A stretch of DNA of 64,000 nucleotides from the human T2T-CHM13v2.0 reference genome, Homo sapiens. Positions 7,235 through 11,376 of the stretch are shown piece by piece. The stretch's first letter is position 1. The number at the start of each line of letters is the position of its first letter. The position numbers were made by a program, and so were the translations under genes. The stretch is taken from assembly GCF_009914755.1 (NCBI RefSeq), contig NC_060930.1; one strand, 5' to 3'. The notes beneath the pieces were generated by a model that did no database searches, was not told the DNA's origin, and worked only from the letters and a program-made list of their open reading frames with translations.

Positions 7235-9750
7235 ACTCCCCTTGCGGTTCTGCCCTTTTTGCTCCCATTGATCCTTCCTGGCTCTGGCCAACGTTGGTTT
7301 CTCTTCCATGTTTCCCTCCAGTTATTCTTCCAGTTATTGTCTACAATTATTGCTTCCAGTTATTCTTGTCTACAATCAGCAAACTTACCTTCTCTAATTC
7401 TTTTCTTTATTTCATCTCCTTATTTTAAATGATTCTGAATTACCAATGCTTAGGTTAAACCAAAGACTAATTACTGACTATATAAGCTTTTTACAACAAT
7501 TCTTTCATGTGACTGAATATGCATCCAGATTTCAGAATAACTGCTCTGTCTGAAAACTGGGTCTCCCCTCAATACTATTTTTAAAGTCTTCTTCCTTTGG
7601 AAGCTCTTTCTGAAGTAACAGGAGCTGTTAATATTTTGGTAATTAAGTATTGCTGCTTCCAAAACATTTTAAAAAATAATTTCTTCAGTGAAGCTGATGT
7701 CAGTATGCTTTATGTCTTTTTTTCCTCTTTACTCTTTTGCTGTCTTCTATTTCTAGGTCCTTACCTAAATTAATATCAATTTTGAAACCTATAATTTTCT
7801 TTTCATTCTAACTCCTGGCATAATTCTAAGATACTTCAATATTACCACCTGAGGAATATATTATTCTCCCTTTATTAATCAAGGCTGCCAGGGAATGATT
7901 CTCAAACAGGGAAGGGAAGAGTATATCGAGATTAATCATTGTAGACATTGCTTCGTGGTCCTCTGGGCAGCCAAAGTGGTGGAAAAAAATGATTGTTCTG
8001 TATTTTTGATCACCATTTCCTTCCTATCAATTATGTGCTCTTTATCTTTTGCCATGATTTTGTTATTTCACCCTTCATCCTGAAAACAGTATGTTCTTTA
8101 GATCACTGGCATTCCCTGTTCCATAGACCACGTGTGTATTCTCAGAAGGTTCAGTAACTCATGGAGTGGCATTACATTTTATTTCATCTAAAGTTTCTTT
8201 TTTGGTGTAGTCAAAGGCATATTCTACATTTCTATAGGAGCTGCCGTTCAGATTCAGAGAAGCGATTGCCCAAGTTGAGGTAAGATTCAGCAATTCCAGG
8301 AGAAAGCAGGTCAGGGAAGAGGGACATAGTCCATAGGTTTCTGAGCACTGTTGCTGCACATGTTGGTTTAACAACATGCAACCTCCAAAGTCTCATTCAT
8401 GGTCAGCTGGGTCAATAGTTGCTGCAATGAAAATCTTCCATCTCTATTATTTCCAGATTTTTCTCCATTTACCTAAAGAAATTTTCCATTAGTTCACAAA
8501 GGTGGCCAGCTTTTCTGGATATGACTTAAACACACTTTGACAATCCAAATTAAAAAAAAATGCTCTTGACCTCTAAGCTTTCTTTACGTGTGGCTCCATG
8601 CTTGCCATCTCTTTTTAGGCTAGGCTTTCCATCTATCCTCCACTTCTATTCATTTATTTTAAAGATATTTAAATAATTTGTCATAATACAGAACTGTTGT
8701 GTCAGCCTGGGGCTTGTGTTCTTAACTGACATCTTTTTATTTATTCAACTTTGCTCTGTATCTTAAGAACAAGAAAATGTTTTTGTTTGTGGTATGTGGA
8801 TGACACTTTGTTTATGCAAGAGTTTCCTAATTGTGAAAGCTTTCTCTTCTCATTTAATTTTTTGTTTTATTGTGACAAGGCTTGGACACCTTCTATTACT
8901 GGGACATCATTTTCTCAGAATTCCAAGGAACATTAACTGAGAAGATGATGTAACACAAAAAATGATCTTTTAAAAATATATTAGATAAAGATTGAAAAAC
9001 TAGTCATAGATTGTTCAGTCATCCAGGGCTGTACAGATATGAGACCAATGTGAAACTATAAGGTGATTGTATGAATTAGTAAAACAGTACACTGACCTTG
9101 AGGGTTAAGTCAAAAGGAGTGTAAAGGAGATGGATAAATCTCAACCACACAAAGATTTTGAGCCAAGCCATACTAATTAAAATAGTTGCTACTAGAGAGA
9201 ATATGAAACACTGTATGAGACATATGGAGTGAGCAGTTTCTCCATGAAATTAACTGAAAGCTCTTTGGTGAGAAAAGCTGATTCTAGATATGTAAAGCTG
9301 TTTTGCAGATGTTATATTAAAATTCTAGCATCCCCATTTGAGCAGCTGCTAATTTGCCTTTGACATAATAAATGCAGTCCTTCAAAACTTATATTCAACT
9401 TATAGGTGCTGCTGACAAGTACAATTACCCACAAGTTGTTAGGATTCTTAGTTCCCATAAATGGGCATTGACAGTGTTGCAAGTTAGTTTTGCAGTGTTT
9501 CAGACCCGGAGATATTATGTTTGGTGTGCAAAATTTATATTGAATGCTTTGCAAGTGAATTTGCTAAGCGTTAGTTCCATGCCATGAAACTCACCAGGTT
9601 TCCATGCAACACAGAAGTATAAAGAAATTATTAATGTATTGGCCAACAATAATAAAGATTAACAACAACAAACAACAAAAAAACAATGAGTTCACTAAGA
9701 AGATCAGGTAATAGGAAATATTAACACAATTATAATTTACAGATATTTTC

Positions 9751-10317
9751 TTTTTTATGTTTATCTTTTAAACTTATTATTGTTATCGTTTCCTTCAGTA
9801 CACACTAGTTTGGTGAGACTTGGAGAAAGGCCAGGAATAAGCCCCAATTCAAGAAACAATTCCAGGATTAACAGATACGTGGATAATAGAGAATTGACAA
9901 AAGATCATGCCTATTTTACCAATGAGAAACTGGTTGGTTAACTTGGGTTGCAAACTGAAAACAGATTTATACTAAAATGGCAGGTGTCTCCAGATCTTAA
10001 ATGCAGATCTCTATCTCTGAGCTAATCTGCCTCTAATCTTCAGTGGCATTCCTCTGAATTTTTCTCCCTCAAATAATCTATACATTATTAAATTTTGTTT
10101 ATACTGCCATTTTAAGAAACACGTTTTAAAACTTTAAACATGGGAAATTTTTTCTTTCTTTTTTTTATTATACTTTAAGTTGTAGGGTACATGTGCACAT
10201 TGTACAGGTTTGTTACATATGTATCCATGTGCCATGTTGGTGTGCTGCACCCATTAACTCATCACTTATATTAGGTATGTCTCCTAATGCTATCCCTCCC
10301 CCATCCCCCCACCCCAC
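9751..10317 (-). mobile_element. 5'-truncated L1PA (L1PA3-5-like, 10148-10317) carrying a 3'-transduced non-L1 segment (about 9757-10147)
   Basis: Perfect 17-bp direct repeat aatttacagatattttc at 9734-9750 and 10318-10334; two T-tracts (9751-9756 and 10148-10166); L1 3'UTR sequence. Confidence 0.9.
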
Positions 10318-11376
10318 AATTTACAGATATTTTCAAGGAAAATATCATGTTTTCTCCCTATAGTTAGTATTTTTTACTTACAATCCTGACATATGTAACA
10401 TAGTTGTTAAGAAACATGTTCACACCCAGGTTAACATTTACTATTCTGTTATTTTCTAATTATATTTGTCTTTTCCTACAACTTCTCATATTAATGAATT
10501 AAGAAAACAAATTTCTATCTGTAGCAATTACATAAATTTCCTGTAAATAAGTGCTAGTAAAAAGTAAAAACAAAAATAGGGAAAATCATGGAATAATAAA
10601 GTAACTGTCTTGTGGATACCAGATTTTCATTAAGCCTATTTCAGCAAAAAGGGACTACTAATGGGGTTTTTTCATGGTTGTAAAATATTTAGTCAACATT
10701 GAGGAAAATACTCTTCCAAAACTAGGTTTTCTTATATCCTAGATATACTACTCTTTTGTTTGAGATACAACATTAAAGAAAAACAAAACAAAAAACTTAT
10801 AAACAGTTTTAGGAGGTATAATTGGTATTCAAGGATAATATGAAATTGGCCTATTTGATCTGCCAAGTAGGCCAAGTGAATCAAGTGAATTGCCCATATT
10901 ACTACCCAACATGGGTCAAGTGAGAGCTTGCTTTATTGTTTTCTATATGTGGTTCTCAATATAATGTTTCTGACTATAGCAGCTTTGAGGACAATATAAT
11001 TATCTCATCCTTTGGGAGATAGTGCCTACAAGAAAAAGTGTAATCCAGATATGTGATTACTATATATATATATTTTTTCTTTTGCAATTACCTGTGGAAG
11101 CATTTGTTTTAGAAAAAAAGAGCTCACCAGGAGCTCATGAATTTAGATTTTTAATATCTAATGTTGAAAGTTCTTTAATAATTTCGTTTACCTGGTATCT
11201 ACATGTATTGGCATCTAAACTGTCTTAAACATTTTTAGGTCCATTTTTATTAAGGGAAGCTCAAAGTGTAGATATTACTGAGATTAATATAGTCCTTTAA
11301 AATGCTGTCATAGGAAGATATTACAGAAAATAAGCACATACCATTTCATGCTCTTTAAACAGGCACAATTTTAGGG

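What the first reader, a model, noticed from the sequence alone, without database searches (positions are those of the whole stretch)
9734..10334. L1-mediated 3' transduction: about 390 bp of foreign DNA inserted with a 170-bp L1 stub
Seen: a perfect 17-bp repeat (aatttacagatattttc, 9734-9750 and 10318-10334) brackets more than the L1. On the minus strand the order is TSD, about 150 bp of L1PA 3'UTR, A-tail (10148-10166), about 390 bp of non-L1 sequence, a second short A-rich tail, TSD. The reconstructed empty site reads TT|GAAAA, a variant of the L1 endonuclease TT|AAAA target. Established: this is the structure left when an L1 reads through its own poly-A signal. Inference: the apparently unique 9757-10147 segment was copied from another locus and tags the source L1 and any siblings. 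Repeat masking alone would probably leave it looking like native unique DNA. It contains a MIR-core-like motif (attttaccaatgagaaactg) and no canonical AATAAA near the second tail.
Basis: partly seen in the sequence, partly recalled or inferred. Interest (0 to 1): 0.8.

Follow-up and report, generated by a model that had tools for sequence, protein, structure and literature searches.

The report
Old L1 insertion carrying chr4 DNA
A short LINE-1 tail and about 390 bases copied from an unrelated place on chromosome 4 were pasted into chromosome 6 in one ancient retrotransposition event, an ordinary and well-known kind of event, though the LINE-1 that now sits beside the chromosome 4 original is a look-alike bystander and not the parent.

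Summary
A perfect 17-bp direct repeat (9734-9750, 10318-10334) brackets, on the minus strand, a 151-bp L1 3'UTR stub, a 19-nt A-rich tail, about 390 bp of non-L1 DNA and a 4-6 nt A tail.

The non-L1 segment has exactly one other copy in this genome, chr4:108532039-108532424. It is 95.6% identical, with 17 mismatches in 390. The chr4 copy has no A tail. It ends 11 nt after the first canonical AATAAA downstream of the junction. So chr4 is the parent and chr6 is the retrocopy.

An L1 lies 176 bp from the chr4 copy in the expected orientation, but it is not the source:
- It is a 1.4-kb 5'-truncated insertion with its own 16-bp TSD.
- The 176 bp of unique DNA between it and the parent copy is absent from chr6.
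- It differs from the chr6 stub at 7 subfamily-diagnostic columns.

Best reading (about 0.8): a classical L1 3' transduction whose source L1 is no longer at the parent site. Main rival (about 0.12): reverse-transcriptase template switching from a chr4 polyadenylated RNA onto an L1 RNA tail.

This is an ordinary instance of a well-described process. Interest is low.

The parts
10318..10334 (.). Target-site duplication, the copy 5' of the element in its sense (minus) orientation
   Evidence: Perfect 17-mer found twice in the window. None of 100 shuffles reached two matches.
10167..10317 (-). 5'-truncated L1 3'UTR stub (151 bp) of the older 'type A'
   Evidence: 39 other genomic L1 3' ends match at 93-95%. 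Only 88.7-89.0% identical to the chr4 neighbour L1. Carries the panel-A state at 7 diagnostic columns.
10148..10166 (-). Internal A-rich tail of the L1 (A8 G A3 G A6 T on the minus strand). Its boundary with the segment is uncertain by 1-3 nt.
   Evidence: Read directly from the sequence. The alignment to chr4 loses homology here.
9757..10147 (-). Transduced (retrocopied) non-L1 segment; parent is chr4:108532039-108532424
   Evidence: Exactly two copies in the genome. 373 matches, 17 mismatches and 4 gap columns against chr4. 33.8% G+C.
9751..9756 (-). Terminal short A run. About 4 A are untemplated; the last two also match chr4.
   Evidence: chr6 reads CATAAAAAA|GAAAA where chr4 reads CATAATTAG.
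9734..9750 (.). Target-site duplication, the copy 3' of the element in its sense orientation

Best explanation
This is one ancient, fixed L1 retrotransposition event of the 3'-transduction type.

**Proposed sequence of events.**
1. An L1 of an older primate type sat, in some ancestral allele, immediately 5' of chr4:~108532424 on the minus strand.
2. Its transcript read through the L1's own weak poly-A signal.
3. The transcript ended at the first canonical AATAAA 386 nt downstream.
4. The L1 machinery nicked chr6 at TT|GAAAA and primed on the short A tail.
5. It copied the 386-nt flank, the source L1's genomic A-tail and 151 nt of L1 3'UTR, then stopped (5' truncation).
6. A 17-bp TSD resulted.

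**What is shown.** The structure, the single chr4 parent, the direction chr4 to chr6, and use of the chr4 poly-A site.

**What is inferred.** That a source L1 once lay at the chr4 junction. It is not there in this genome, so chr4 today would be the empty (or lost-allele) site.

**The chr4 neighbour.** The truncated L1 176 bp away on chr4 is a bystander.

**Function.** No function is implied. The insertion lies in a window with no annotated gene.
For: 1. A 17-bp perfect TSD flanks the composite and nothing smaller. No TSD pair flanks the stub alone or the segment alone.
2. The order is L1 3' end, A-tail, unique DNA, A-tail, all in one orientation.
3. The segment has a single paralogue, at 95.6% identity. 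Homology stops at both ends of the segment and the flanks are unrelated.
4. On chr4 minus sense, the first canonical AATAAA/ATTAAA after the junction is at chr4:108532048-108532053, 11 nt before homology ends. chr4 has no A tail there.
5. The chr4 junction reads CCTATTT|AATTCCC. This keeps the TT|AA core of an L1 endonuclease site (read directly).
6. The sense strand of the segment is antisense to TET2. The TET2 catalytic exons lie 40 kb further along on the + strand. So TET2 pre-mRNA cannot have been the template.
7. Absence of a donor L1 at the reference source locus is usual. Passages read in PMC4862182 say that most validated primate transductions had no full-length donor at the source locus. 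[quoted passage not shown]
8. Known L1 chimeras made by template switching or ligation carry the L1 at the 3' side, the reverse of this order (PMC11838501, passages).
Against: - No source L1 is present at the chr4 junction in this genome. The only L1 3' end within chr4:108524000-108542000 is the unrelated neighbour. The local database used there held only L1 3' portions.
- No sibling insertions carry the same tag.
- The terminal A tail is very short, about 4 untemplated A.
- The presumed source target site, TTT|AATT, is a weak match to TT|AAAA.
- The A/T-rich junction would serve equally well as microhomology for a template switch.
- Orthologous loci in other primates could not be examined.
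Confidence: 0.8

Rival explanations
1. Template-switch chimeric retrocopy. L1 ORF2p primed in trans on a polyadenylated minus-strand RNA from chr4 (antisense to TET2) and copied its last 386 nt. It then jumped onto the poly-A tail of an L1 RNA and copied 151 nt of that. No L1 ever sat at the chr4 junction.
For: - It gives exactly the same structure.
- It needs no lost source L1, and none is seen at chr4.
- The chr4 bases just 5' of the junction are AA (CCTATTTAA|TTCCC). These could pair the nascent cDNA with a poly-A template.
- There are no siblings.
Against: - Described L1 chimeras have the L1 as the 3' part, where reverse transcription starts, in line with cis preference (PMC11838501, passages). 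This one would be the reverse order and would need trans mobilisation as well as a switch.
- The junction has no splice-acceptor AG.
- No other retrocopy of such an RNA exists. The 176 bp upstream of the junction is single-copy.
- Ending at the first canonical AATAAA after the junction is specifically what read-through from an L1 at that junction predicts.
Confidence: 0.12
2. The truncated L1 that now lies 176 bp from the chr4 parent copy is the source. The 176 bp would have been lost by an internal deletion or an intramolecular jump, and the two L1 sequences would have drifted or been converted since.
For: - The orientation is right and it is close.
- Both A-tails carry G interruptions.
- The Hoyt et al. 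preprint states that truncated elements can transduce and that 231 of 700 offspring did not match their parent's subfamily (passages).
Against: - The chr4 L1 is a complete insertion unit of about 1.4 kb with its own perfect 16-bp TSD, so it has no promoter.
- It is 88.7-89.0% identical to the chr6 stub, against 95.6% for the adjoining segment (Fisher p = 0.006).
- 7 of the differing columns are fixed differences between the two L1 types. No rare state is shared.
- Its type is the one carried by present-day copies with open ORF2 frames, and the chr6 stub's type is not.
- The 176 bp is unique DNA that is absent from chr6.
Confidence: 0.03
3. Two independent insertions (an L1 stub and a separate retrocopy) that happen to abut, or a DNA-level duplication.
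For: None specific.
Against: - The only TSD pair flanks the composite. The sequences next to the internal A-tail and next to the stub's 5' end do not match each other.
- Homology to chr4 ends exactly at an A-tail on one side and at a poly-A site plus A run on the other. This is the signature of RNA-mediated copying, not of segmental duplication.
Confidence: 0.03

Closest known systems
L1 3' transduction (read-through of the L1 poly-A signal; Moran 1999, Goodier 2000 and Pickeral 2000 are recalled, not read here; described in passages read in PMC9311842 and in the Hoyt et al. preprint 10.1101/2021.07.12.451456)
   Same: - TSD-flanked composite of L1 3' end, internal A-tail, unique flank and terminal A-tail.
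- Unique parent copy on another chromosome, ending at a downstream poly-A signal.
- Severe 5' truncation.
- Endonuclease-like target site.
   Different: The source L1 is not at the parent locus in this genome, and no siblings exist. The nearby L1 at the parent locus is unrelated.
Source-locus 'class 2' of Tica et al. 2016 (PMC4862182, passages read)
   Same: The parent locus has only a small truncated L1 near the transduced sequence, unrelated to the transduction.
   Different: That class was defined on polymorphic, recent insertions found from short reads. This is an old fixed event, and here the neighbour L1 was shown to be unrelated by its own TSD and by its subfamily states.
Chimeric retrocopies made by L1 reverse-transcriptase template switching or RNA ligation (U6/L1 and others; PMC11838501, passages read)
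   Same: Two RNA-derived parts in one orientation inside one TSD pair.
   Different: In those, the L1 is the 3' part and the other RNA is 5'. Here the L1 is the 5' part, with its A-tail at the junction.
Orphan 3' transduction (Solyom 2012; seen only as a reference-list entry in PMC4862182)
   Same: Unique DNA moved by L1, with the source L1 absent from the reference.
   Different: Orphans lack any L1 sequence. This insertion keeps 151 bp of it.

Membership tests
L1 3' transduction | One target-site duplication flanks the L1 part plus the non-L1 part | tested here: met
   17-bp perfect repeat at 9734-9750 and 10318-10334. None of 100 shuffles reached two matches. No alternative TSD flanks either part alone.
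L1 3' transduction | L1 3' end with its A-tail lies 5' of the non-L1 part, in the same orientation, and a second A-tail follows the non-L1 part | tested here: met
   Read. The stub matches 39 other L1 3' ends at 93-95%. The second tail is weak, about 4 untemplated A.
L1 3' transduction | The non-L1 part is a copy of unique DNA elsewhere that ends at a poly-A signal | tested here: met
   Single paralogue at chr4:108532039-108532424, 95.6% identical. The first canonical AATAAA after the junction lies 11 nt before the end of homology.
L1 3' transduction | L1 endonuclease-type target site | tested here: met
   TT|GAAAA on the sense strand, one base off TT|AAAA. The consensus itself is recalled.
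L1 3' transduction | A source L1 directly 5' of the parent copy | tested here: inconclusive
   Not present in this one genome. The junction reads CCTATTTAA|TTCCC. The only L1 3' end within chr4:108524000-108542000 is an unrelated truncated copy 176 bp away. An ancestral or unfixed allele cannot be examined with these tools. Passages in PMC4862182 show that donors are often missing at reference source loci.
L1 3' transduction | Insertion absent (single 17-mer) at the orthologous site of outgroup species | not testable with these tools
   No other primate genome is held.
Template-switch / ligation L1 chimera | L1 forms the 3' part, where reverse transcription starts, and the other RNA forms the 5' part | tested here: not met
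   The order here is the reverse. The feature is taken from passages in PMC11838501.
Processed retrocopy of a cellular mRNA or lncRNA | The parent sequence is an exon or 3' end of a known transcript on the same strand | not testable with these tools
   No annotation of the chr4 locus is available here. The segment is antisense to the TET2 exons found on the + strand, and there is no AG at the 5' boundary.

The most novel reading that the evidence does not exclude
The insertion is an 'inverse' L1 chimera. A polyadenylated antisense RNA from the TET2 region was mobilised in trans. Reverse transcriptase then jumped from it onto the poly-A tail of an L1 RNA, giving an L1-5'/cellular-RNA-3' chimera that mimics 3' transduction. 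If such mimics are common, some catalogued 'transductions' whose parent and offspring subfamilies disagree would be misclassified.
Probability: 0.1. Interest if true: 0.35.

Novelty: new member of a known kind. Interest (0 to 1): 0.18.

Why it matters
The event itself matters little. It is one more old, fixed L1 3' transduction in a gene-poor stretch, with no sign of function.

It has two small uses:
- It shows that about 365 bp which the mask leaves looking like native chr6 DNA (9757-10122) is a retrocopy of DNA from the TET2 region of chr4.
- It is a clean cautionary case for pipelines that pair a transduced sequence with the nearest L1 at the parent locus. The nearest L1 here has the right orientation and lies only 176 bp away, yet it is demonstrably not the parent. 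The Hoyt et al. preprint reports that 231 of 700 high-confidence transductions disagree with their assigned parent in subfamily. Some of these could be bystanders of this kind.

Tried and rejected
**chr4 neighbour L1 as the source.** Rejected.

**Dating the chr4 neighbour L1 against the copy event by divergence.** Unresolved.
- The neighbour L1 differs from the 70%-or-more majority of 14 long type-B copies at 29 of 1367 sites.
- At non-CpG sites this is 27 of 1347 (2.0%). The segment gives 14 of 390 pairwise, or 1.8% per lineage. The binomial test gives p = 0.87.
Only the order of the two L1 types is supported.

**Naming the two L1 subfamilies.** Not done. No repeat library is held, and my recollection of the subfamily consensus sequences proved unreliable against the data.

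**The 176-bp chr4 spacer as a later repeat insertion.** Rejected. It is single-copy.

**Splicing as the cause of the missing 176 bp.** Rejected. There is no GT/AG at the boundaries.

**Papers not held (recalled only).**
- Szak 2003.
- Khan 2006 under the id I tried.
- The journal version of Hoyt 2022 under the id I tried.

**Hoyt preprint supplements.** Closed, so I could not see whether this locus is in their Table S13.

**MIR-like motif.** Not tested.
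Full report
**What is in the window.**

The + strand of 9500-10600 shows the 17-mer AATTTACAGATATTTTC at 9734-9750 and again at 10318-10334. The repeat finder reports it as a 100% pair. A pattern scan of the whole 64-kb window allowing 2 mismatches finds only these two copies. None of 100 dinucleotide shuffles gave two matches.

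Read on the minus strand, the interval holds:
- the TSD;
- 151 bp of L1 3'UTR (10317-10167);
- an A-rich run with two G and a terminal T (10166-10148);
- about 390 bp of 33.8% G+C non-L1 DNA (10147-9757);
- a short A run (9756-9751);
- the TSD again.

The reconstructed target on that strand is CCTT|GAAAATATC. The stub is L1: of 1674 first-look candidates, 40 were scored, and besides the stub itself 39 genomic L1 3' ends match it at 93-95%.

**Where the non-L1 segment came from.**

Searching the window's own genome with 9757-10147 gave 2 candidates, and both were scored. One is the window itself. The other is chr4:108532039-108532424, at 95% over bases 1-390. A pairwise alignment of the two loci on the element's sense strand gives 373 matches, 17 mismatches and 4 gap columns in the shared part (95.6%). 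Similarity is lost outside it.

The direction of copying is clear:
- On chr4 the homology ends at CATAA|TTAG with no A run, while chr6 continues CATAAAAAA and then the TSD.
- On chr4 a canonical AATAAA (chr4:108532048-108532053, minus strand) sits 11 nt before that end.
- A scan of the chr4 minus strand, from the neighbour L1's tail downward, shows this is the first AATAAA or ATTAAA after the junction.
- In chr6 the hexamer is disrupted by a 4-base insertion and a substitution.

By my own arithmetic from the 10 transitions and 7 transversions listed, the Kimura distance is about 4.5%. With recalled primate neutral rates this puts the event very roughly 10-25 million years ago. I could not check this against other primates.

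**The chr4 L1 is a decoy.**

On chr4 a minus-oriented L1 begins 176 bp from the parent copy, on exactly the side where a source element should be. Taken at face value this would 'confirm' the source. It does not, for five reasons.

1. The 176 bp between the L1 tail and the parent copy is unique DNA (1 candidate, 1 match, itself) and is absent from chr6.
2. The chr4 L1 is flanked by its own perfect 16-bp TSD: TCAGCAGTCCTTTTTC at L002 2056-2071 and at chr4:108534018-108534033. It is therefore a self-contained, about 1.4-kb, 5'-truncated insertion without promoter or complete ORFs.
3. The two L1 3' ends are only 88.7-89.0% identical, against 95.6% for the adjoining segment (17/155 against 17/390; Fisher p = 0.006).
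4. They belong to different L1 types.
   - I took the 29 fetched best relatives of each as panels A (chr6 stub) and B (chr4 L1). In each search 40 were scored, 30 loci were fetched, and the query itself was excluded.
   - The chr6 stub is a median 93.4% identical to panel A and 89.4% to panel B. The chr4 L1 is 91.4% to A and 98.0% to B.
   - Of 20 differing alignment columns, 7 are fixed differences between the panels, 4 are private to chr6, 3 are private to chr4 (two of these are tail columns) and 6 are mixed. No state shared by the two is rare in either panel.
   - A tree separates the two groups.
5. The polarity of the types is set by data. I sampled 12 L1 copies with 1283-aa open ORF2 frames. 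Eleven gave a full 3'-end alignment. At all 7 diagnostic columns they carry the panel-B/chr4 state. They are a median 94.2% identical to the chr4 L1 and 87.4% to the chr6 stub.

Panel-A copies are also more decayed outside the region used to select them. The median of private sites is 3.4% (11 of 29 copies long enough), against 1.5% for panel B (17 of 29). So the chr6 stub comes from an older L1 type than the chr4 neighbour.

I could not order the chr4 L1's insertion and the copying event by divergence alone. At non-CpG sites the chr4 L1 has 27/1347 = 2.0% private sites. The segment has 14/390, or 1.8% per lineage (p = 0.87). The conclusion does not depend on that order.

Within chr4:108524000-108542000 no other L1 3' end was found. 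The local database there held only L1 3' portions plus flanks. Four further intervals of about 250-320 bp, each hit by about 20 loci, are probably Alu; this was not verified.

**Mechanism.**

The structure is the textbook product of L1 3' transduction: read-through of the L1's own signal, polyadenylation at the next signal, target-primed reverse transcription, and 5' truncation.

For that reading the source L1 must have abutted chr4:108532424/5, where today the sequence reads CCTATTT|AATTCCC. This keeps a TT|AA core. Its absence is expected rather than troubling. Passages read in Tica et al. 2016 (PMC4862182) report that only 3 of 6 human calls had a full-length reference L1 at the source. [quoted passage not shown] The chr4 locus is a worked example of the 'unrelated' case.

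The segment's sense strand is antisense to TET2. Tet_JBP-matching exons lie at chr4:108572693-108587165 on the + strand. One of them translates to a PDB match named Methylcytosine dioxygenase TET2, E = 3.4e-38. Host-gene pre-mRNA is therefore excluded as template. From recalled gene structure the parent site is probably inside a 5' intron of TET2. That was not tested.

**The rival that cannot be excluded.**

A reverse-transcriptase template switch would leave the same sequence. In that case reverse transcription would start on a chr4 polyadenylated RNA and jump onto the A-tail of an L1 RNA. The AA just 5' of the chr4 junction could serve as microhomology.

Against it:
- Described L1 chimeras carry the L1 as the 3' part (PMC11838501, passages).
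- It needs trans mobilisation plus a switch.
- There is no splice acceptor at the boundary.
- Ending at the first canonical signal after the junction is what read-through from that junction predicts.

I put it at about 0.12. The remaining possibilities are the neighbour L1 as the source, and two independent insertions or a DNA-level duplication. Each is given about 0.03.

**Novelty and interest.**

L1 3' transduction is long established. It has been catalogued genome-wide in this very assembly: 183 highest-confidence L1 3' events (Hoyt et al. preprint, passages). The preprint's supplements are closed, so I do not know whether this locus is listed.

This is at most a new member of a known kind. 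The one point of wider use is methodological. The same preprint notes that 231 of 700 transduced loci disagree in subfamily with their assigned parents, and attributes this to later mutation or conversion. This locus shows that a nearby L1 in the right orientation at the parent site can simply be a bystander.

I searched the library for the topic. I make no claim that this particular insertion is unpublished.

Noticed in passing
window 9742-9753 and 10335-10346 (empty site: 10326-10346 joined to the flank): The chr6 target site is a near-perfect palindrome, GATATTTTC-AAG-GAAAATATC (repeat finder pair I11, 12 nt, 92%). The first-strand nick falls at the edge of the 3-nt centre, so both strands present the same TT|GAAAA-type site.
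   Followed up: no
L002 2072-3386 and L003 1-1018 (chr4:108532610-108534017), TSDs at L002 2056-2071 and L003 1019-1034: A 1.4-kb 5'-truncated L1 of the younger type with a perfect 16-bp TSD (TCAGCAGTCCTTTTTC). Its target is also TT|GAAAA-like. It lies 176 bp from the parent copy of the transduced segment.
   Followed up: yes
chr4:108532039-108532424 relative to chr4:108572693-108587165: The parent of the transduced segment lies about 40 kb before the + strand exons that match Tet_JBP and PDB TET2, and is antisense to them. It is probably inside a 5' intron of TET2, but that rests on recalled gene structure.
   Followed up: partly
G000:C13:87095066-87095368 (minus strand): The best Tet_JBP match in the genome (91.8 bits) is a single stretch on chr13 covering model positions 11-108, with one TAG inside. 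It looks like a processed TET pseudogene.
   Followed up: no
window 9640-9690: AATAAAG is followed by an AAC/A-rich run (aacaacaacaaacaacaaaaaaac) just before the TSD. This could be the decayed tail of an older + strand retroposon.
   Followed up: no
The motif is also present in the chr4 parent. Not tested against any repeat library.
   Followed up: no
chr4:108524778-108525475 and 108540250-108541291: Four intervals of about 250-320 bp, each matched by the flanks of about 20 unrelated fetched loci. Probably Alu elements; not verified.
   Followed up: no
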